Assembly: GCA_963787255.1 (NCBI GenBank)
Contig: CAWBCJ010000025.1
Span: 96,001-160,000 of the forward strand
Length of the DNA stretch: 64,000 bases
Source: Methanobacteriota archaeon
Lineage (GTDB): Archaea > Methanobacteriota > Methanobacteria > Methanobacteriales > Methanobacteriaceae
Direction: 5' to 3'
Shown: positions 5,242-19,976 of the stretch, in pieces
Position numbering within the stretch: position 1 is the first letter of the stretch
Layout of the letters: every line of letters begins with the position of its first letter
Notes under the pieces: generated by a model
What the model was told of the DNA's origin: nothing
Database searches by the model: none
The model's input: only the letters and a program-made list of their open reading frames with translations
Position numbers and translations under genes: made by a program

Positions 5242-5772
5242 TCAAACACTCTTATCTTGTTTAGAAACGCAAAAATGGCACAAAGCGCCAGGCGTATTCA
5301 ACTGTTTTTCTTTCACGGGACATAAATATTCACCATTTTCAAATTTAATTTTAAATCCACCTGGAAATGAAGTTCCAACAGGGTGAATAGAGGCTTCTAA
5401 TATAAATGTAGTGTAGATGGAAACAATTTTTGCTAAACGCAAAAAATAAATCTCCTGTTCGGTTTTAGATTCTTTAATCTGTTTTAATAATAATTTTATA
5501 AACTCCTGAAGATTATTATTATCTATATACCCTTCATAGTTCTCTTTATCTTCTTTAATATCTTTAAAACGAGTAATAAATGCTCTGGTAAATGTTTCAA
5601 CGAATTCTTCCCTGTAACCAGCATGCATATACTTGGCATCTTCTTGAATGTATGCAGAAGCCAGCATTATATCGTGTATGTGAATTTGTGAAGCTTCCTT
5701 CTTTAAAACCCTCAGAAGTTCATTCTTTGAAATTTTACTTGAAAAGTCAAGATCTTCAATAGTTTCGGCCAT
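5242..5772 (-). CDS. DUF2115/UPF0305 family protein
   Basis: IHPVGTSFPGGF...YLCPVKEKQ...ALCHFCVSKQ. Confidence 0.85.
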   Translation of the reverse strand: MAETIEDLDFSSKISKNELLRVLKKEASQIHIHDIMLASAYIQEDAKYMHAGYREEFVETFTRAFITRFKDIKEDKENYEGYIDNNNLQEFIKLLLKQIKESKTEQEIYFLRLAKIVSIYTTFILEASIHPVGTSFPGGFKIKFENGEYLCPVKEKQLNTPGALCHFCVSKQDKSV

Positions 5773-5809: not shown

Positions 5810-6347
5810 TTAGATGTCGTCATCCTGTTCAGCAATGCAAAACCCGCAAACTGCAGCGGGATTATCCTTCTGCTTTTCTTTTACAGGACATAAATATGTT
5901 CCATTCAAGTATTTAACTTTAAATCCGCCTGGAAACGGCGTTCCAACTACATGTATGGGTTCATCAAGAACAAATGTTGTATAAATGGACACAATCTTGT
6001 AAATCTTAAAAAAGTTGGATTCATTTGATTCTTAATTTTATAAACATTTTCTCTTGTTCATTTAGAAGTTCTAAAGCTTCTTTAAATTCATTTTTATCCA
6101 AAGTACCTTTAAATTTACTTTTATTGTCTCTAATTTCCTTTACTCTTAAGATGAATCCCTTTGAATATGCTTTTAGATATTCTTCTCTATAGTTTCCCTG
6201 AACATACTTTCCTTCATCAACTAAATAGGCATGAGCGGTCATAATATCCATTATGCTGATAGTTGAAGCTTCTTTTTTAAGAACAACTAGGAGTTCTTCT
6301 TTTTTTATTTCCCTTTTAAAATCAATTTCTTCAACTTTTTTTATCAT
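5810..6347 (-). CDS. DUF2115/UPF0305 paralog, frameshifted near 6030
   Basis: ORFs 6021..6347 and 5810..5992 together are colinear with the neighbouring paralog (PIHVVGTPFPGGF...YLCPVK...CGFC). Confidence 0.8.
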
Positions 6348-6379: not shown

Positions 6380-8470
6380 TTAAGGCTTAAATTTGGCGAA
6401 TTCTTCTTTACCAAATTTCTTCATAATTGATTCAGCAGTTTTAGGGCCAATTCCTTCTATTTTAACAAGTTCATCCTTTGAAACATATCTTAAATCAGTT
6501 CCAAACACATCTACAAGTGCACGGGCACGTTTCCGTCCAAGACGCTTAACACTAACTACCAGTGGGATTAATTCATCTTTTACTCCATAATATAGACGTG
6601 TAGACAGTTTATCTAGGTCTTCAGTGTAAGAGTAAATATTCATTACTCCACAAATATCTTTAAAGAATTTCACCATTCTTGAAGCTTCATAAGCAGCTCT
6701 TCGGGTGGTTGCAGCGTATACATTGAATGCATTTTCAATTCCATACTCACTTCTTTCCTCAATCCATTCTAAAAGAGCTGCTGCTGTGGCTTCATCATTT
6801 CCAATATCACAGGCAAAGATCCCTGATTCGTTTAATTTGTCCATAACAGCTTCTTTACTCTTCCTGCTTTTAAATGAGATTTTGGGCATATCCGGAGTTC
6901 TTGAAATTTCGTATATAAGCTGATATATGTTTATTTGGTCTCGTCTTGCATATTCTTTAAGTCTTACCGCTGTTTCCACAGAATAATTGCTCCTTGCAAT
7001 TAAATTTCCAAAATCTGTAGTTTTAAGCCCTTCTGGAGTTAACTGAATAATTCTGTTATGAACAAGAAATTCAAGTGCATTATTAATCTCATATTCCATT
7101 GTGTCAACAGAAAGAGCGCCGAAAAAGTCATTGGCGTTCATCTGGTAACCATAAAATGTCTCGCCGAAAAATTCAAGGATATCCTGCGGGCTTTTGGCAA
7201 GAGAAGATGCTATCTGGGCTATTATTTGTCTGTAGACTGCGTCTTTATTTTCTATCAGTTTGGAGCTTGTTACTTCTATATCTCCATAAATATAATGATC
7301 TTTTAAATTGTAGGCTTCATCCATAGTTTTGGCAATTAAATATGAATAACCTTCGGTATCGTATCCTGGACGACCTGCACGACCTGACATTTGCTCGTAA
7401 TCAAACACTGGAATGCTTTGAGGCCCTTGCGATGTCCAACGAGTATAATCTCTTATTAAGACATTCTTTGAGGGTAGATTTACGCCATACATAAGGCTGG
7501 GGGTAGCTGTTATCATTAAGAGGTTACCTGCACGGAATTCTTCTTCAACTATCTGGCGTTGTTTGTCAAAAAGACCAGCATGGTGAAATGCAATTCCATT
7601 TTCAACGCATTCGGCAAGTTTTAGGCAGATTGAAGTTGGTCTGGAACCTCTTTTTCTAGGCACGTCCAGTATCTTTTCTGCTACTTCCCTGAAAGCTATT
7701 TTTTTATCTCTTGGAATTTTCCTTTTTACTTTTCCAGAAATATAATTTGCTAGAGATTCAGTAAACCTTCGAGTGGATACAAAAACAAGAATCTGTGATG
7801 AATCTTCAATTGATTCGTTTAAAATTTGTAGAACCATATCGTTTTTGTTTTTTAATTCGTGTTCTTCGGTTATGAGTACATCTTTGTAAAGTGGAACTGG
7901 TCTGTAATCATGCTCTACAACTTCTGCATTTATCCAGCTTGCAAGCTCCTGCATATTTTTGAGTGTTGCAGAAAGTGCAATAATTCTAAGGGCAGGGTTT
8001 ATTATTTTTGATCTGGTGATTGCACATTCAATTGTTGGACCACGCGAATATTCACCAATCATGTGAAATTCGTCAATAATGAGGAGATCAATTTCACGGA
8101 GGGTATTCCATGAAAATCTGGTGATTGCATCAAATGATTCAAATACCATAACTGATAAGTCTGCCGACCGGGGGTGTTTTCCTACTTTAATGCCGAATTT
8201 TTCAAGCTTTTTAAACTCGGCAAGCTTTTCGTTTTGGATTGATATTAATGGAGCTGCATATACAACCTTACCTCCATTTAATATAGTATTTAATGCGGTG
8301 ATTAATCCTAGAAGTGTTTTTCCACTTGCTGTTGGAATGGCTATGATGTAATTAGAGTTATTTTTAAGCAATCCTGAATCTATAACTGCCTTTTGAGCAG
8401 GATTAAGCTCTTTAATTTGAGGATAGCAATCAGCGATTATATCTTTGACTTCCTGATTTAATGTTTCCAT
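6380..8470 (-). CDS. hel308: Ski2-like DExH helicase Hel308/Hjm
   Basis: IPTASGKT, DEFH, SAT, AFHHAGL, QMSGRAGRP and a C-terminal HhH (IEGIGPKTA). Confidence 0.9.
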   Translation of the reverse strand: METLNQEVKDIIADCYPQIKELNPAQKAVIDSGLLKNNSNYIIAIPTASGKTLLGLITALNTILNGGKVVYAAPLISIQNEKLAEFKKLEKFGIKVGKHPRSADLSVMVFESFDAITRFSWNTLREIDLLIIDEFHMIGEYSRGPTIECAITRSKIINPALRIIALSATLKNMQELASWINAEVVEHDYRPVPLYKDVLITEEHELKNKNDMVLQILNESIEDSSQILVFVSTRRFTESLANYISGKVKRKIPRDKKIAFREVAEKILDVPRKRGSRPTSICLKLAECVENGIAFHHAGLFDKQRQIVEEEFRAGNLLMITATPSLMYGVNLPSKNVLIRDYTRWTSQGPQSIPVFDYEQMSGRAGRPGYDTEGYSYLIAKTMDEAYNLKDHYIYGDIEVTSSKLIENKDAVYRQIIAQIASSLAKSPQDILEFFGETFYGYQMNANDFFGALSVDTMEYEINNALEFLVHNRIIQLTPEGLKTTDFGNLIARSNYSVETAVRLKEYARRDQINIYQLIYEISRTPDMPKISFKSRKSKEAVMDKLNESGIFACDIGNDEATAAALLEWIEERSEYGIENAFNVYAATTRRAAYEASRMVKFFKDICGVMNIYSYTEDLDKLSTRLYYGVKDELIPLVVSVKRLGRKRARALVDVFGTDLRYVSKDELVKIEGIGPKTAESIMKKFGKEEFAKFKP

Positions 8471-14166: not shown

Positions 14167-14472
14167 GTGGATAAAGCAGAAGCTTTAAAAATTCTTCACG
14201 AATCCCGAAATAAAATAGATGGAATTGATGAAGAAATCATATCTCTTATAAAAAAAAGAACATCTCTTGCTGGGGACATTGTAAATGCAAAATTAGTTCT
14301 AGGCATGGATATAGAAGATAAAAAGAGAGAAGGTTATATTCAAGATAAAACAAAAAAAATTGCAGAGCAGAAACAAATTGACGAAAACTGCCTCAAAAAA
14401 ATAATGAAAATTTTAACTGATTTAAGCAAAAAAGAACAAGAAGAAATACTTAGGAGGGAAACTAATGGGTAA
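14167..14472 (+). CDS. Chorismate mutase (AroQ type)
   Basis: R.KID.ID.EII.LI.KR...K......IED..RE. Confidence 0.85.
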
Positions 14473-14656
14473 CATAAGAACATCATTCGTAAAAAGAACT
14501 GCAAAAGAGTTAATAGAAACATATGAGGGTAAATTCACTACAGATTTCGATGTAAACAAAAAACTAGTGGAAGAATACTCTACTGTAAGTACAAAACATC
14601 TTAGAAACAAAATTGCAGGATACGTAACCAGATTGGTTAGACAAGAACCAAGATAG
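14465..14656 (+). CDS. rps17e: 30S ribosomal protein S17e
   Basis: MGNIRT.FVKR...FTTDF..NK...[11 protein letters not shown]. Confidence 0.95.
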
Positions 14657-14675: not shown

Positions 14676-15899
14676 ATGGGAATTATAGTGGCTAAATTTG
14701 GAGGAACCTCCATTGGAAATGGGGAACGGATTAAAAAAGCCGCCCAATCAGTTGTAAATGAATACATGAAAGGTAATAAAGTAGTTGTTGTGGTATCTGC
14801 AATAAATAAAACTACTGACGAGTTTCTTAAAATCGTCGCTGATGCCATGGAAGAATCCATAACAGGTAAACAACTTGCAGAAGTCTTTTCCATGGGCGAA
14901 ATGACTAGTGTTAGAATATTTTCAGCAACAGTAGAATCATTGGGCGTTAAATCTGAATATGTTGATCCTTATAAGGACACTTGGCCCATAATAACTGATG
15001 ATAATTTTTTAAGTGCAAAAGTAGATTTTAAAGCAACAGAAGAAAGATCAAGTGAATTAAAAAAGATGATTGACGAAGGAATAATTCCCATAGTCTGTGG
15101 TTTCCTTGGAAAGGCTGAGTCAGGAACCATCACAACTTTGGGCCGTGGGGGAAGCGATATAACAGCATTCCTACTGGGGCATTGTCTTAAAGCTGAAGAA
15201 GTAATCATTGTAACCGATGTTGGTGGTGTAATGTCCACCGATCCAAACAAACTTCGAAACGCAAAAAAGCTTGATAAAATATCTGTTGAAGAAATGAGGG
15301 ATCTTGCAACCCATGGGGCGCAGGTACTACATCCTCATGCTCTTAAATATAAAGATCCTAAAATAGATGCCAAAATAATCGGGTACGACCATGGAGATTT
15401 ATCAGCTCCAGGAACAGAGATTATTGGACCATCTAATAATAGCGAATTAATTAAAAGCGCAACTTTAAACAGCGAGCCAATATCGGTTATAGCTGTTGTT
15501 GGAGAAGAAATTCTAACTAAAACTGGAATTTTGGCAAAAATAACCGATACTCTTGCTGAAAATGACATTAATATATTTGGAATTTCCACAGGCCAGAATT
15601 CTATAACGGTATTTGTAAATAAGGCCGCGTCAGAACATGCTCATGAAGTACTTCATGAGGTGGTTGTGGAAACTGATGATTTAAGTTCACTATCACTTGG
15701 AATGGAAATTGCAATGATAACTGTTATCAGTCAGGACTTTATAGATACTCCTGGAGTAATTGCAGAAATAACTGAACCTTTACAAAAAAATAAGATTAAT
15801 ATAGTTGAAATTTCTTCAAGTCAAACTTCTGTTGTTATTTTCGTTGATTGGAATGATGGAAGAAAGGCTTATGAACTTGTAAAAGGTGTCTTAAAATGA
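14676..15899 (+). CDS. lysC: Aspartate kinase
   Basis: [20 protein letters not shown]...DP, two ACT domains. Confidence 0.95.
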
Positions 15900-16789
15900 A
15901 ATTAGAAGGTACGATCGTAGCTATGGTAACGCCATACACAAAAAGTGATGAAATAGATGAGGAAGGAATCCGTGAAAATATAAATTACTTAATAGAAAAG
16001 GGCGTAGATGGGATATTGGTTGCCGGAACGACAGGAGAATCAGCCACAGTATCTCATGATGAACACCGTAAGCTAGTTGACATTCTAATCGATGAAGTTA
16101 ACGGTAGAGTTACAACTATCGCGGGAGCGGGTAGTAATTCATCCAAAGAAGCTCTTGGACTTGTGAAACATGCGGAAAATACAGGAGCAGATGCTGCACT
16201 CGTTATAACGCCATACTACAATAAACCACAACCTCACGGTCTTTATAAACATTACGAAATGCTAACAGATTCTACAGATATTCCCATTGTAGTTTACAAT
16301 GTGCCGTCAAGAACTGGAACTGATATAGACGTTGAAACTATTGGAAAAGTGGCAGAACTTGATAATATCGTTGCCATAAAAGAAGCAAACCCTGATCTAG
16401 ATAAAGTATCTAAAATAATTAAAAAAATTGACGAAGTTAATAAGACTGATAAATTCGTTGTTCTTTCTGGAAACGACGATCTCACACTTCCTATGATTGC
16501 AATGGGGGCAAAAGGAGTTATAAGTGTTGTTGGAAACGTTGATCCTGCGCGTATGAGTCGGATGGTTAATTATGCATTAGAAGGTGACTTTGAATCTGCC
16601 GCTAAAGCACATTACGAGCTCTATGATCTTATGAAGGTGCTCTTTGTGGAGACTAACCCCGTACCTGCAAAAGCTGCTTTAAACATGATGGGAAAGCCCG
16701 CAGGGCATGTTCGAATGCCTCTTGCACCTCTAAAAGAGGAAAGCGAGGCTAAAGTAAGGGAAGTACTTAAAAAGCTTGATTTAATTTAA
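15896..16789 (+). CDS. dapA: 4-hydroxy-tetrahydrodipicolinate synthase
   Basis: [24 protein letters not shown]. Confidence 0.96.
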
Positions 16790-16833: not shown

Positions 16834-17655
16834 ATGATTGGAGTGGCTGTAACAGGCGCAAGTGGAAGAATGGGTTCTAAAATAATTAAAACCATACTAG
16901 AACAGGACGATATGAAAGTTGTAGCAGCAATAGAAGCACCAGAAACTCCGCTGGAAGGAAAGGATATAGGAGAAGTTATTGGTGTTGGAAAGATGGATGT
17001 AACCGTAAACGGTGCAGAAAAACTTGCTGAGGTTTTAAAGGAAAAGAAACCAGATATACTTGTTGATTTCACCATAGCCGATGCGGCAGTTAACACAATC
17101 AAAACATCTGCAAAATGCGGTGTAAATGTAGTTGTAGGCACAACTGGCATATCTGATGAACAGATGGATGAAGTTAGAGAATCCATAGAAGATAACAATA
17201 TAAAAGCGGTTATATCCCCAAATATGGCAGTTGGAGTTAATGTATTCTTTAAAGCAATTAAAGACCTTGCAAAAATCCTCAATGATTACGATATTGAAAT
17301 AATAGAAGCACACCACAAACATAAGGCCGATGCACCTTCAGGAACAGCAGTTAAAGCTTATGAAATTATAGCAGATGAGCTTGGAAGAAACAAAGAAGAA
17401 GCATGCGTATACGGCAGACAGGGACTTGTTGGAGCTCGTAGCGAAGAAGAGATAGGAATGCACGCCGTTCGTGGAGGGGATATTGTTGGAGATCACACAG
17501 TACTCTTTGCAGGGGATGGAGAACGAATCGAAATAATTCACAGGGCTCACAGCAGGCAGGCATTTGTAAGTGGCGTAATTAAAGCAATAAGATTTGTAAT
17601 TAATGCTCCTGAAGGTAAAATAAGTGACATGGGCGATGTTCTAGGTATTAAATAG
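16834..17655 (+). CDS. dapB: 4-hydroxy-tetrahydrodipicolinate reductase
   Basis: GASGRMG, VGTTG, EAHHKHKADAPSGTA. Confidence 0.96.
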   Translation: MIGVAVTGASGRMGSKIIKTILEQDDMKVVAAIEAPETPLEGKDIGEVIGVGKMDVTVNGAEKLAEVLKEKKPDILVDFTIADAAVNTIKTSAKCGVNVVVGTTGISDEQMDEVRESIEDNNIKAVISPNMAVGVNVFFKAIKDLAKILNDYDIEIIEAHHKHKADAPSGTAVKAYEIIADELGRNKEEACVYGRQGLVGARSEEEIGMHAVRGGDIVGDHTVLFAGDGERIEIIHRAHSRQAFVSGVIKAIRFVINAPEGKISDMGDVLGIK

Positions 17656-17700
17656 AAATATAATCTTAACCCATTTTTTCTATTATTATATGGGGATCAC

Positions 17701-18864
17701 ATGCTTTTTAAGAAACACGATAAAGTAACAGAGTTTGTGCCAACATTTCTAAAAGAAGATAGATCTGCTTTAAGAAAAATCCACGAAGTAATAAGCAGGG
17801 CAAAAAACCATATTTACATAGTATATCCATGGATAACGCTTGGTGAAGAATTTATAATTCCTTTTGAAAATGCTCTTTCAGTTAATGAAGATATAGAGAT
17901 ATATTTAATTACAAAACTTGAAAGAGAAGATGTATTCCGGCGATTACATCAATTAGAAGATGTTGAAAGATGGAAAAATATTTTTGAAAACAATATGTCC
18001 ATCAAATACAATAACAACATCCACGCTAAGATGATAATTGCTGACGATAAAGAAATGATTGTTGGCTCTTCAAATCTCACTGGAAGCGGCCTTGGATCAT
18101 CAAGAGAATACGAAGGACGGCCTCAAATTGAAGCAAACGTATATACCAATGATCCTGAAGCATTAAAAAATGCAGTGGGATTTTTTGTTAAATTATGGAG
18201 CCATAACACTTCTAATGAATATATAAATAATGAATACGTTTTATCCTGTAAATCCTATCAGCTTTCAGGAATATATCAAAGATTCCGAAAAGATTTTGAT
18301 AACATAGTTAAAAAGGAAAACATCCAATTTTTAGGGAATGGAACGGTAAAATTCAGGGGAATTTTATCTTATTTAGACAATGATAAAGCGTATATTATGG
18401 GTAAAAAACGTAAAGACATTGCAATAAAATTCATTGGAAATAATAAAGCTTTCAAATCAGCTAAAATTGGGGAAGAAGTGGAAATTTCAGGGAAACTGGG
18501 TAAACTGGACGGATTTAATGAATTCACCTTAAGAGGGTTTTCGGCTATAAACAGGGAAATTTCTATAAATAATTTAAAAAGTGGTTTAAGCCAGCTTACA
18601 ATTGACGCTGAAATCATAGAAATAGATAACACCCTTGAACTGGAAACTAAACATGGAACAAAAATCCTGACACTTGTAAATATTAAAGATGATACTGGGA
18701 GTGTTGTTTTAGAATTATGGGACAACATTATTCCTGAAGAAAAGATTATAAGCGGCACGAAGTTAGAAATAAAAAATGCATATACTAAAGTGTTTAATGG
18801 GGAAATCAGGTTAGGAATTCAAAAATATGATGGAAAAATTAAATTAATAAACAATATGAGATAA
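17701..18864 (+). CDS. PLD-like (single HKD) nuclease domain fused to OB-fold (SSB/RPA-like) domains
   Basis: HAKMIIAD...VGSSNLT...EAN; C-terminal DDTGSVVLELWD...G..LEIKNAY.KVFNGEIRL; probable second degenerate OB fold (IGEEVEISGKL). Confidence 0.8.
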   Translation: MLFKKHDKVTEFVPTFLKEDRSALRKIHEVISRAKNHIYIVYPWITLGEEFIIPFENALSVNEDIEIYLITKLEREDVFRRLHQLEDVERWKNIFENNMSIKYNNNIHAKMIIADDKEMIVGSSNLTGSGLGSSREYEGRPQIEANVYTNDPEALKNAVGFFVKLWSHNTSNEYINNEYVLSCKSYQLSGIYQRFRKDFDNIVKKENIQFLGNGTVKFRGILSYLDNDKAYIMGKKRKDIAIKFIGNNKAFKSAKIGEEVEISGKLGKLDGFNEFTLRGFSAINREISINNLKSGLSQLTIDAEIIEIDNTLELETKHGTKILTLVNIKDDTGSVVLELWDNIIPEEKIISGTKLEIKNAYTKVFNGEIRLGIQKYDGKIKLINNMR

Positions 18865-18932
18865 TAAGAATGAATATAAGAATAGATTTAATAATATTTA
18901 GATAAGAATTTATGAGTATATAGGTGATTAAA

Positions 18933-19976
18933 ATGGTAAATGTAGGTATTCTCGGAGCAACTGGAATGGTTGGGCAGAGATTCATAGAACTACTGGCGGA
19001 TCATCCAAAGTTCGAACTCACTGCCCTTACAGCATCTGCAAGATCAGCAGGAAAAAAATACGAAGACGCAGCAACATGGTATCTTGATACTAAAATACCA
19101 GAAAGCGTTAAAGACATAACTGTAGTAGACACAGACCCAAAAGAAACAAAAGACGTAGATATAGTATTTTCTGCACTACCTACAGACACTGCAGCTATAG
19201 TAGAGCCAAAATTTGCCAAATCATGCATCGTAGCATCAAATGCAAGCGCAATGAGAATGGAACCAGACGTACCCCTCGTAATTCCTGAAGTAAACCCAGA
19301 ACACCTGGACATGATTGAAACCCAGCAAAAAAACAGAGGATGGGACGGATTCATTGTAACTAATCCTAATTGTTCAACTATAGCACTTACAATTACCCTT
19401 AAACCGCTTTACGACCAGTTCAATATAAAAAGAGTTTATGTTTCAACCATGCAAGCTGTTTCAGGCGCTGGCTACAACGGAGTTCCTTCAATGGCAATAA
19501 TAGACAACCTTGTACCTTTTATAGGTGGTGAGGAAGAAAAGATGGAAACTGAAACCCTTCAGTTATTGGGAGATTATGATGGCGAAGCCGTAAATCCTGC
19601 ATCTTTTGGAGTTAGCGCTTCATGCCACAGAGTTGCTGTAGTGGATGGACATACAGAAGCAGTTTTCATTGAAATGGAAGATAGTTTTGAAATTGATGAA
19701 ATTAAAGAATCTATGAATTCATTTAAAGGTCTACCTCAAAAACTGAATCTTTATTCAGCACCAAAAAATCCTATAGTAATTAGGGAAGAAGATAACCGAC
19801 CGCAGCCTAGAATGGACAGAAATACTGATAATGGAATGGCTGTTACAGTTGGTAGGGTTAGAAAAGATGCAGCTTTTGCAAAAAGTCTTAGATATGTCCT
19901 TGTTGGTCATAATACTGTTAGGGGTGCTGCTGGAGCTTCAATTTTGAATGCAGAGTTAATATCTGAGATAATGTAA
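18933..19976 (+). CDS. asd: Aspartate-semialdehyde dehydrogenase
   Basis: [30 protein letters not shown]; GGTGA RBS before ATG 18933. Confidence 0.96.

What the first reader, a model, noticed from the sequence alone, without database searches (positions are those of the whole stretch)
17701..18864. PLD nuclease fused to SSB/RPA-type OB folds, inserted inside the lysine operon
Seen: a 387-aa ORF with one intact HKD motif (HAKMIIAD at 18022, then GSSNLT and a downstream EAN), a probable degenerate OB fold, and a clear SSB/RPA-like OB fold (DDTGSVVLELWD...NAY.KVFNGEIRL). It sits co-oriented between dapB and asd, 45 nt after dapB, and looks more AT-rich than its neighbours. Established: single-HKD PLD domains (Nuc, BfiI, DISARM DrmC) are homodimeric metal-independent nucleases, and dapB and asd are adjacent in Methanothermobacter as I recall. 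Inference: a stand-alone ssDNA-sensing nuclease, for anti-virus/plasmid defence or repair, using a constitutive operon for expression. I do not recognise this architecture as a described system.
Basis: partly seen in the sequence, partly recalled or inferred. Interest (0 to 1): 0.75.

Follow-up and report, generated by a model that had tools for sequence, protein, structure and literature searches.

The report
Methanobacterium PLD nuclease fused to OB folds
A real, conserved gene of Methanobacterium and close relatives joins a phospholipase-D-type nuclease domain to two single-strand-binding OB folds; it is an old, vertically inherited insertion in the lysine operon, uncharacterised but not a mobile defence island.

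Summary
ORF 17701-18864 (+, 387 aa) has a canonical, invariant HKD motif in a Pfam PLDc_2 domain. A basic middle domain folds as an OB barrel. The C-terminal OB fold is homologous to Sulfolobus SSB and human SSB1 (E 3e-12), and its DNA-stacking aromatic positions are kept. The PLD domain is predicted to form a Nuc-like homodimer through the HKD residues.

The gene is not a recent arrival. It was found in 26 of 301 Methanobacteriales genomes, in 4 of 29 genera. It lies between dapB and asd in every locus that reaches far enough, apart from one paralog. Fourteen genomes without it have dapB next to asd, and two of these are nested among carriers, which implies one clean loss. dN/dS is 0.05-0.13 and GC3 equals that of the neighbours. 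There are no viral or plasmid relatives and no defence neighbours.

Best reading: a lineage-specific, dispensable, cytoplasmic nuclease directed at single-stranded nucleic acid. The defence role is unsupported but not excluded. It is a new domain architecture of a known enzyme kind.

The parts
17701..18864 (+). PLD-OB-OB gene, 387 aa plus stop
   Evidence: ORF. 72 homologs at 45-99% identity, all named ones from Methanobacterium. dN/dS 0.05-0.13 in 7 pairs.
17701..18255 (+). N-terminal single-HKD PLD domain (residues 1-185), including a nearly invariant N-terminal segment (residues 1-22)
   Evidence: Pfam PLDc_2 covers residues 29-166 at E 1.5e-10. Foldseek matches NucT 6ehi, Nuc 1byr and Zucchini 4ggj. 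Predicted homodimer interface includes residues 8-17, 106-111, 121-124 and 142-147.
18022..18075 (+). HKD catalytic motif, H108-x-K110-x4-D115-x6-G122-S-S-N125
   Evidence: Read from the sequence. All seven residues are invariant in 28 of 28 aligned family members.
18076..18138 (+). Family-specific conserved loop after the HKD motif (LTGSGLGSSREYEGRPQIEAN) with invariant R135, E138, Q142, E144 and N146
   Evidence: Invariant in 28 of 28. Low pLDDT in the monomer model for residues 124-145. E144 of one copy is predicted to touch H108 of the other.
18313..18540 (+). Middle domain OB1 (about residues 205-280): small, basic, divergent OB barrel
   Evidence: Model of residues 192-286 has pLDDT 76.6 and the order strand-strand-strand-helix-strand-strand. 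The listed hits are OB folds, at Z up to 6.6. pI 9.9 for residues 186-285. No Pfam match.
18559..18849 (+). C-terminal domain OB2 (residues 287-383): SSB/RPA-type OB fold
   Evidence: PDB profile search gives 1o7i at E 3e-12. NCBIfam archaeal SSB models match at E 2.6e-12, below cutoff. Foldseek TM 0.75-0.77 normalised by target length. W340 is kept in 28/28, position 361 is Y or F in 28/28, position 365 is F, Y or H in 28/28.
16834..17655 (+). dapB, upstream neighbour
   Evidence: Pfam DapB_N and DapB_C. Upstream of the gene in 20 of 21 named loci.
18924..19976 (+). asd, downstream neighbour
   Evidence: Pfam Semialdhyde_dh and Semialdhyde_dhC. Downstream in 18 of 21 named loci; in the other three the contig ends first.
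14676..16789 (+). lysC and dapA, the rest of the conserved lysC-dapA-dapB-asd cluster
   Evidence: Pfam AA_kinase with ACT domains, and DHDPS. Same gene order in all genomes examined, with or without the insert.

Best explanation
The gene encodes a cytoplasmic, metal-independent phosphodiesterase of the PLD superfamily that is aimed at single-stranded nucleic acid, most likely ssDNA.

Mechanism (inferred). Two copies pair through their single-HKD domains, so that the two H108/K110/N125 sets, with E144 supplied in trans, form one active site, as in Nuc, NucT and Zucchini. One histidine attacks the phosphodiester and forms a phospho-histidine intermediate. Each protomer carries two OB folds on flexible linkers: a basic divergent one and an SsoSSB/hSSB1-like one with its stacking aromatics kept. 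These capture single strands and hold them at the catalytic groove.

Evolution (shown). The gene was inserted once, long ago, between dapB and asd in an ancestor of Methanobacterium and three allied genera. It has since been inherited vertically under purifying selection and is dispensable, having been cleanly lost at least once.

Biological role (inferred). A lineage-specific accessory of DNA metabolism, such as trimming or degrading ssDNA in repair, recombination or turnover, rather than a horizontally mobile defence module.

Status of each step. Shown: architecture, motif conservation, distribution, synteny, selection. Predicted: OB1 fold and the dimer. Inferred: substrate, chemistry and cellular role.
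For: Architecture.
- PLDc_2 scores above the Pfam cutoff, and the HKD residues are invariant in 28 of 28 sequences.
- The PLD fold matches the single-HKD nucleases NucT, Nuc and Zucchini.
- OB2 is homologous to SsoSSB (E 3e-12) and hSSB1.
- By the numbering of the alignment, W340, Y361 and F365 fall on SsoSSB W56, W75 and F79. W340 is kept in 28/28, position 361 is Y or F in 28/28, and position 365 is F, Y or H in 28/28.
- OB1 models as an OB barrel and is basic, with pI 9.9.

Dimer.
- The score is 0.81 against a best control of 0.00.
- In the tool's calibration that mark was reached by 20 of 30 proteins solved as pairs and 1 of 23 solved as single chains.
- The three runs agree in at least 98% of contacts, and partner pLDDT is at least 82.
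- The interface contains residues 106-111, 121-124 and 142-147, with H108 touching E144 of the other copy.
- Like complexes (Nuc, NucT, Zucchini dimers) are solved, so the pass may reflect likeness rather than independent evidence.

Precedent. NucT, a single-HKD PLD nuclease, strongly prefers single-stranded substrates (abstract of PMC5714352).

Cytoplasmic location. There is no hydrophobic segment; the maximum Kyte-Doolittle value over 19 residues is 0.95.

Evolution.
- Full-length orthologs occur in 19 of 22 same-genus genomes, and in 26 of 301 genomes of the order, in 4 of 29 genera.
- The gene lies between dapB and asd in 11 of 11 loci (asd is 2 kb further on in one). Among the named loci, dapB is upstream in 20 of 21 and asd downstream in 18 of 21. 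These include members of all four genera, and the two sets of loci overlap.
- dapB and asd are contiguous in 14 of 14 genomes without the gene.
- The two same-genus genomes without it form one pair nested among carriers, with SH-aLRT 97 and 100.
- dN/dS is 0.052-0.134 for the gene, against 0.055-0.169 for dapB and 0.044-0.140 for asd.
- GC3 is equal to that of the neighbours.
- No relatives were found in viral contigs, phage records or plasmids.
- Only 1 of 26 flanking ORFs matches PADLOC, and it is a Hel308-like helicase.
Against: - No biochemical data exist, so substrate (DNA or RNA, endo or exo, or end-adduct removal) is inferred from domain kinship only.
- OB2 is acidic overall, with pI 5.15.
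- OB1 matches are only middling: Z 6.6 and best Foldseek E 6e-3. The tool notes that Z under 8 can mean only a common arrangement.
- The full-length model is mediocre: pLDDT 66, with the conserved post-HKD loop below 50.
- The dimer pass may come from the model's memory of solved Nuc-type dimers.
- Patchy presence (3 of 18 genomes in one genus), a clean loss and a divergent paralog beside an ARPP-1 gene and a PDC-S11-like gene are what an accessory defence gene could also show.
- The best PADLOC match of the PLD domain is DrmC at E 5e-13.
- dS exceeds 1 in two of the seven pairs, so those ratios are rough.
Confidence: 0.55

Rival explanations
1. One reading: a stand-alone innate defence nuclease. 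It senses and destroys the ssDNA of viruses, rolling-circle plasmids or incoming conjugative or transforming DNA, and has become fixed in the chromosome within a housekeeping operon.
For: - The PLD domain is most like DrmC models in PADLOC (E 5e-13), and matches NCBIfam DrmC_I at E 6e-8.
- The gene is confined to 4 of 29 genera, patchy in one of them (3 of 18), and was lost cleanly once.
- A divergent paralog in one metagenome-assembled genome sits downstream of an ARPP-1 gene (Pfam E 2e-102) and a PDC-S11-like gene (PADLOC E 3e-15).
Against: - There are no partner or defence genes around it: 1 of 26 flanking ORFs matches PADLOC, and that one is a Hel308-type helicase.
- Scores are far below the DrmC cutoff (32.5 against 133 bits) and the DpdK cutoff (24.7 against 100 bits).
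- The position is fixed across four genera, with a vertical pattern.
- dN/dS is as low as in dapB and asd, and GC3 is equal.
- Nothing was found in viral, phage or plasmid collections.
Confidence: 0.18
2. It is an end-cleaning phosphodiesterase rather than a strand-cutting nuclease. On this view it is a functional analogue of Tdp1 (also a PLD-superfamily enzyme), removing protein or chemical adducts from the ends of single-stranded DNA, or a PLD3/PLD4-like ssDNA exonuclease.
For: - The architecture couples PLD chemistry to ssDNA binding.
- There is a family-specific, invariant 20-residue loop beside the active site.
- That PLD-superfamily members act on ssDNA ends is recalled knowledge of Tdp1 and PLD3/4, not from any call.
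Against: - Tdp1 and PLD3/4 do not appear among the sequence matches or among the listed fold matches.
- The fold matches that do appear are Nuc, NucT and Zucchini endonucleases.
Confidence: 0.1
3. It acts on RNA. It would be a single-strand RNA endonuclease (Zucchini-like) or a tRNA- or RNA-binding enzyme, with the OB folds reading RNA.
For: - Zucchini is among the fold matches.
- NucT cuts single-stranded 'nucleic acids' (abstract).
- OB1 resembles the anticodon-binding OB of LysRS, AspRS and AsnRS as well as SSBs.
- Some homologs carry precomputed Pfam tRNA_anti-codon hits.
Against: - The best sequence matches of OB2 are DNA-binding SSB/RPA proteins.
- The aromatic positions that stack on ssDNA in SsoSSB are kept (their role in SsoSSB is recalled).
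Confidence: 0.1
4. It is not a nucleic-acid enzyme. It would be a lipid-modifying PLD, or a non-catalytic TrmB-like ligand-binding regulator linked to the lysine operon.
For: - Weak Pfam Regulator_TrmB hit (E 0.028), and TrmB and TrmBL2 appear among the fold matches.
- The gene is embedded in lysC-dapA-dapB-asd, with a PAP2 lipid phosphatase downstream.
Against: - The invariant HKD residues argue for catalysis.
- There is no membrane segment.
- Two nucleic-acid-type OB folds are present.
- The PAP2 gene and the operon are there in genomes without this gene too.
- There is no helix-turn-helix domain match.
Confidence: 0.03

Closest known systems
Nuc (Salmonella plasmid pKM101) and NucT (Helicobacter pylori): single-HKD PLD nucleases
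   Same: One HKD motif in a PLD fold of about 150-180 residues. Fold matches are 6ehi (TM 0.67) and 1byr (TM 0.66), both normalised by target length. A symmetric homodimer through the HKD region is predicted. NucT prefers single strands (abstract of PMC5714352).
   Different: No secretion signal or membrane anchor. Two extra OB folds. A 20-residue invariant loop after the HKD motif. The NCBIfam NucT model scores 17.4 bits against a cutoff of 297.
BfiI and NgoFVII-type restriction enzymes: a PLD nuclease with an appended DNA-binding domain (recalled)
   Same: The same modular logic: an N-terminal single-HKD catalytic domain that must dimerise, with a C-terminal nucleic-acid-binding module that delivers the substrate.
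   Different: The binding module here is a pair of OB folds of the ssDNA-binding kind, not a sequence-specific dsDNA reader. No methylase partner lies nearby. Pfam RE_NgoFVII did not match the query.
DISARM DrmC and Dpd DpdK: PLD proteins of defence systems
   Same: Best PADLOC match is DrmC at E 5e-13. NCBIfam DrmC_I matches at E 6e-8 and DpdK at E 1.5e-5.
   Different: Scores are 32.5 against a cutoff of 133 bits, and 24.7 against 100 bits. No helicase or methylase partners of DISARM or Dpd flank it. DrmC and DpdK have no OB folds (recalled).
Sulfolobus solfataricus SSB and human SSB1 (SOSS-B1): single-OB ssDNA-binding proteins
   Same: OB2 is homologous, at E 3e-12 and 4e-6, with rmsd about 2 A. 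The aromatic positions are conserved.
   Different: The protein ends right after the OB fold and has no flexible C-terminal tail. It is fused to an enzyme. It scores 47 bits against a cutoff of 235 for the archaeal SSB equivalog.
Zucchini/PLD6, PLD3/PLD4 and Tdp1: PLD-superfamily enzymes acting on single-stranded nucleic acids
   Same: PLD chemistry applied to single strands. Zucchini 4ggj is a fold match.
   Different: None of these uses OB folds for substrate capture (recalled). PLD3/4 and Tdp1 have two motifs in one chain. No sequence match to any of them was seen.

Membership tests
PLD superfamily (HKD phosphodiesterases) | HxK(x)4D(x)6GSxN motif | tested here: met
   H108, K110, D115, G122, S123, S124 and N125 are present and invariant in 28 of 28.
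PLD superfamily (HKD phosphodiesterases) | Pfam PLDc_2 / PLDc above gathering score | tested here: met
   41.5 bits against 27, and 22.7 against 21.9.
Nuc-like single-HKD nucleases | Homodimer that builds one active site from two HKD motifs | tested here: inconclusive
   Prediction only: score 0.81 against best control 0.00, with HKD residues in the interface. The pass may reflect likeness to solved Nuc-type dimers.
Nuc-like single-HKD nucleases | Metal-independent nuclease activity dependent on the motif histidine | not testable with these tools
   Needs an enzyme assay with H108A and EDTA controls.
NucT (NCBIfam NF010492) | Score at or above the equivalog cutoff | tested here: not met
   17.4 bits against 297.
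DISARM DrmC | Score at or above the NCBIfam DrmC_I cutoff | tested here: not met
   32.5 bits against 133.
DISARM DrmC | Encoded with DrmA, DrmB and a methylase | tested here: not met
   Of 26 ORFs within about 12 kb on either side, only a Hel308-type helicase matches any PADLOC model. The immediate neighbours are dapB and asd.
Dpd system DpdK | Score at or above the NCBIfam cutoff | tested here: not met
   24.7 bits against 100.
Archaeal single-OB SSB (NCBIfam PRK06461 models) | Full-length equivalog score | tested here: not met
   47 bits against 235. Only the OB core (residues 288-372) aligns.
SSB/RPA-type OB fold (domain level) | Homology to ssDNA-binding OB domains, with aromatic stacking positions kept | tested here: met
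   E 3e-12 to 1o7i. TM 0.75-0.77 normalised by target length. W340 in 28/28, position 361 Y or F in 28/28, position 365 F, Y or H in 28/28. Pfam Ssb-like_OB itself is below cutoff, at 19.7 against 24 bits.
OB fold (middle domain) | Five-stranded barrel with a helix between strands 3 and 4 | tested here: inconclusive
   The model has that order of elements and the listed structural matches are OB folds. Scores are middling: Z at most 6.6 and Foldseek E at least 6e-3. No sequence-family match.

The most novel reading that the evidence does not exclude
This would be a previously undescribed type of enzyme: a self-contained nuclease that senses and cuts ssDNA, using PLD chemistry guided by tandem OB folds. 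Methanobacterium would keep it either as chromosomally fixed innate immunity against ssDNA or rolling-circle elements and incoming DNA, or as an archaeal stand-in for Tdp1/PLD3-type processing of ssDNA ends. The paralog beside ARPP-1 and PDC-S11-like genes would then be the ancestral, conflict-system form.
Probability: 0.2. Interest if true: 0.55.

Novelty: new variant of a known kind. Interest (0 to 1): 0.38.

Why it matters
PLD-family nucleases usually gain their specificity from partner proteins, such as restriction or defence helicases, or from the shape of the catalytic groove. Here the enzyme is hard-wired to two ssDNA-type OB folds. That makes a simple and testable case for how a metal-independent nuclease can be aimed at single strands.

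No member has been studied. The family sits in one cluster at 50% identity among 1.84 billion representatives and is confined to a few methanogen genera. If active, it adds an unrecognised nuclease to archaeal DNA metabolism and might serve as an EDTA-resistant ssDNA-specific reagent.

The clean presence/absence polymorphism at a fixed site offers natural comparison strains.

Tried and rejected
- Expression. The one RNA run that shares words with the region (X20, share 0.05) gave a single contig over dapB only (16913-17071). Nothing can be said about transcription of the gene or its co-transcription with dapB or asd.
- Mobile-element origin. No relative was found in IMG/VR viral contigs (63 pattern hits, 0 confirmed), in 50,697 phage records or in 72,556 plasmids.
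- Wider architecture. PLD proteins of similar length from the representative search (P0097, P0104, P0158 by profile comparison; P0111 and P0090 by BLASTP) align only over the PLD domain and the segment after it, not over OB2. P0145 shares only OB2.
- P0076, which looked like an aspartokinase fragment fused to the OB, looks like a chimeric or misassembled ORF on a 1203-bp metagenome contig. P0077 and P0073-P0075 are fragments of the same family.
- The ESM Atlas returned only the family's own cluster (0.99). The next hits, at 0.78, are generic PLD clusters.
- Earlier findings of this scan: nothing by place or by sequence.
- AT-richness as a sign of foreign origin is rejected, because GC3 equals that of the neighbours.
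- The 'TAG inside' flagged for G010 is that ortholog's own stop two codons early (383 aa), not a broken gene.
- Literature. Searches found no paper on a PLD-OB fusion. PMC12839542 (passages read) concerns HKD domains in BREX proteins and an unrelated OB fold in BrxL.
Full report
OBSERVATION

The ORF at 17701-18864 (+) is real and 387 aa long.
- H108 of HAKMIIAD begins at base 18022.
- The full motif H108-x-K110-x4-D115-x6-G122-S-S-N125 is canonical for the PLD superfamily, and QIEAN follows at residues 142-146.
- dapB (Pfam DapB_N and DapB_C) ends 45 nt upstream. asd (Semialdhyde_dh and Semialdhyde_dhC) starts 59 nt downstream. lysC and dapA precede dapB.

DOMAINS

N-terminal PLD domain.
- Pfam gives PLDc_2 on residues 29-166 (E 1.5e-10, 41.5 bits against a cutoff of 27) and PLDc on 103-128.
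- A family alignment of 28 sequences (A1, 45-87% identical to the window protein) keeps all seven motif residues in 28 of 28.
- It also keeps a family-specific loop, LTGSGLGSSR-x-EG-x-PQIE-x-N, with R135, E138, Q142, E144 and N146 invariant.
- The AlphaFold2 model of the whole protein is mediocre: pLDDT 66, with the post-HKD loop below 50.
- Even so, its N-terminal part matches the single-HKD nucleases NucT 6ehi (TM 0.67), Nuc 1byr (TM 0.66) and Zucchini 4ggj (TM 0.55), all normalised by target length. It also matches other PLD-fold proteins (F13, TrmB, FAM83).

C-terminal OB fold (OB2).
- The A1 profile matches Sulfolobus SSB (1o7i, 2mna, 7wcg; E 3e-12 to 4e-12) and human SSB1/SOSS-B1 (E 4e-6) over profile positions 287-376.
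- NCBIfam archaeal SSB models match at E 2.6e-12, but at 47 bits against a cutoff of 235.
- Foldseek superposes it on 1o7i and 5d8f at TM 0.75-0.77 (normalised by target length), rmsd 1.8-2.3 A.
- By the numbering of the alignment, W340, Y361 and F365 fall on SsoSSB W56, W75 and F79. I recall these as the ssDNA-stacking residues; no call shows it.
- W340 is kept in 28/28, position 361 is Y or F in 28/28, and position 365 is F, Y or H in 28/28.

Middle domain (OB1).
- It has no sequence-family match.
- I folded residues 192-286 alone, with an alignment of 19 orthologs taken from the window and from loci (A2). The model has pLDDT 76.6 and the element order strand, strand, strand, short helix, strand, strand.
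- The listed Foldseek matches are OB folds as I read their titles: LysRS anticodon-binding domain, RuvA domain I, YgiW, Stn1, RPA32, RMI2. The best E-value is 6e-3.
- A Foldseek-independent scan of 48,161 chains lists 50 entries that I also read as OB folds: bacterial SSBs, PriB, editosome OB domains, AspRS/AsnRS N-domains, RPA, MCM. Z is 5.3-6.6 over about 70 residues at 2.3-3 A.
- The tool warns that Z under 8 can be a common arrangement. I therefore call OB1 an OB fold with moderate confidence.
- It is basic, with pI 9.9.
- The OB1-OB2 linker varies in length. One family member (P0071, 506 aa) carries an insert of roughly 120 residues of low complexity there.

Dimer.
- A single HKD cannot make a PLD active site alone; this is established for Nuc-type enzymes (recalled).
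- Two copies of residues 1-180, folded with the family alignment, gave a score of 0.81 in three runs. The best of three controls scored 0.00.
- In the tool's calibration that mark was reached by 20 of 30 proteins solved as pairs and 1 of 23 solved as single chains. The runs agree in at least 98% of contacts, and partner pLDDT is at least 82.
- The interface holds residues 106-111, 121-124 and 142-147 and the conserved N-terminal segment 8-17. H108 touches E144 of the other copy.
- Because Nuc, NucT and Zucchini dimers are solved, this pass shows likeness and may come from memory.

DISTRIBUTION AND HISTORY

Homologs.
- The word-indexed search found 72 homologs of 212-678 aa at 45-99% identity. 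Every source name given is Methanobacterium or an unspecific label.
- The exhaustive search of 1.84 billion representatives found one full-length cluster (P0033) plus fragments. The next hits, at E 1e-11 and weaker, cover either the PLD domain or the OB fold but never both.

Genomes.
- Full-length orthologs are in 19 of 22 same-genus genomes.
- A profile search of 301 Methanobacteriales genomes found the gene in 26 (24 of 222 high-quality ones), in 4 of 29 genera. The tallies by genus, own genome not counted, are 17/20, 4/5, 3/18 and 1/1. It was not found in the other 25 genera sampled, among them genera with 93, 29, 26, 23 and 20 genomes.

Synteny.
- In 11 of 11 loci from relatives, dapB lies directly upstream. 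asd lies directly downstream in 10 of them; in the eleventh it is 2 kb further on.
- In the 21 named loci, dapB is upstream in 20 and asd downstream in 18. The other three are cut by contig ends. The one locus without dapB is a paralog.
- These two sets overlap in genomes. By matching coordinates, they include members of all four genera.

Empty sites and loss.
- Fourteen genomes without the gene, from eleven genera, all have lysC-dapA-dapB-asd contiguous, with dapB-asd gaps up to about 135 nt (9 of 9; 5 of 5).
- Two of these belong to the window's own genus. One is 98% complete and the other 84% complete.
- On a dapB+asd tree of 28 rows (quick IQ-TREE search, SH-aLRT only) they form one pair (100) nested in a 7-row clade (97) with the window and four other carriers.
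- The label needs two changes on the tree, which fits one gain and one clean loss. The basal branches are unresolved, so a single origin is not ruled out and not shown.

Selection and composition.
- In seven ortholog pairs, dN/dS of the gene is 0.052-0.134, against 0.055-0.169 for dapB and 0.044-0.140 for asd.
- By domain: PLD 0.029-0.083, OB1 0.083-0.190, OB2 0.048-0.149. One noisy pair gives 0.54 for OB2, where dS is 0.15 over about 100 codons.
- dS exceeds 1 in two pairs, so those ratios are rough.
- The protein diverges faster than its neighbours: 51-55% identity where dapB is 72-77% and asd about 77-78%.
- The gene's lower GC (0.308 against about 0.39-0.40) lies entirely in codon positions 1 and 2. 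GC3 is 0.250, against 0.255 and 0.251. That reflects amino-acid composition, not foreign DNA.

CONTEXT

- The flanks are housekeeping genes: a GHMP kinase, chorismate mutase, ribosomal protein S17e, lysC, dapA, dapB, asd, a PAP2 phosphatase, a thermosome subunit, CbiD, MoaC, thiolase and HMG-CoA synthase.
- Of 26 flanking ORFs, one matches PADLOC at E 1e-5 or better. It is a 696-aa helicase with DEAD, Helicase_C, archaeal helicase domain 4 and HhH domains. I read it as Hel308-type; it resembles HamB only as a Ski2-like helicase.
- No relatives were found in viral contigs, phages or plasmids.
- The protein has no hydrophobic segment.

INTERPRETATION

The most economical reading is a homodimeric PLD phosphodiesterase whose four OB folds per dimer capture single-stranded nucleic acid and feed it to a shared HKD active site. 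NucT shows that this enzyme class can be strongly single-strand-specific (abstract of PMC5714352).

The gene entered the dapB-asd junction once in an ancestor of a few Methanobacterium-like genera. It has since behaved as an ordinary, constrained but dispensable chromosomal gene. The junction tolerates extra DNA: M. oryzae carries a further 2 kb there. I therefore see no functional tie to lysine synthesis.

A defence role is not excluded. The PLD domain is closest to DrmC models, the gene is patchy, and a divergent paralog sits beside ARPP-1 and PDC-S11-like genes. Nothing at this locus supports it, however. Substrate (DNA or RNA; endo, exo or end-cleaning) and cellular role remain inferences.

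NOVELTY

All parts are known kinds. Their fusion is, as far as four literature searches and the databases show, undescribed and uncharacterised. Sources name these proteins only 'phospholipase D-like domain-containing protein' or 'nucleic acid binding OB-fold'. I rate it a new variant of a known kind, of moderate interest.

Noticed in passing
L033:3573-4121 (a 4123-bp contig of a metagenome-assembled genome; also G013:C173 and G013:C229): A divergent second copy of the PLD-OB family: 59% identical over residues 11-184, the same lineage as P0072 at 46%. It is not next to dapB. Upstream lie an ARPP-1 domain gene (PF20208, E 2e-102), two ORFs with no family match, and a 366-aa ORF matching the PADLOC candidate system PDC-S11 (E 3e-15). 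It was seen in 1 of 301 genomes.
   Followed up: partly
L017:7165-9171 (Methanobacterium oryzae DSM 11106): About 2 kb of extra DNA lies between the PLD-OB gene and asd. It includes a 162-aa ORF that looks like a multi-pass membrane protein. The dapB-asd junction has therefore taken up further lineage-specific DNA, and asd presumably has its own promoter there.
   Followed up: partly
P0071 (506 aa) and L032:6001-7205: The OB1-OB2 linker is expandable. P0071 has an insert of roughly 120 residues of repetitive, low-complexity sequence. In L032 the two halves of the gene lie in different frames, which means a frameshift or an assembly error in that linker.
   Followed up: no
window 17674-17679: A run of six T lies 19 nt after the dapB stop and just before the gene's GGGG ribosome-binding site. 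Its length varies between strains in metagenome contigs (1-nt deletions at 17674, 17679 and 17685). It could be an archaeal oligo-T terminator between dapB and the insert.
   Followed up: no
window 6383-8470 (-): A 696-aa helicase, Hel308-type as I read its domains (DEAD, Helicase_C, archaeal helicase domain 4, HhH). It matches many PADLOC HamB models (best E 1e-34), which is an example of a housekeeping helicase that defence-model scans would flag.
   Followed up: partly
window 5245-5772 (-) and 6024-6347 (-): Two adjacent ORFs both match DUF2115. The second is shorter (108 aa) and covers only the first half of the profile. It may be a duplicated or truncated copy.
   Followed up: no
window 14167-14656 (+): The chorismate mutase ORF and the ribosomal protein S17e ORF overlap by 8 nt and sit directly upstream of lysC. 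This order is conserved in the named loci that reach that far.
   Followed up: no
L048 (G043:C55:66000-66827): One genome of another genus has a second dapB copy (69% identical) that is not followed by asd.
   Followed up: no
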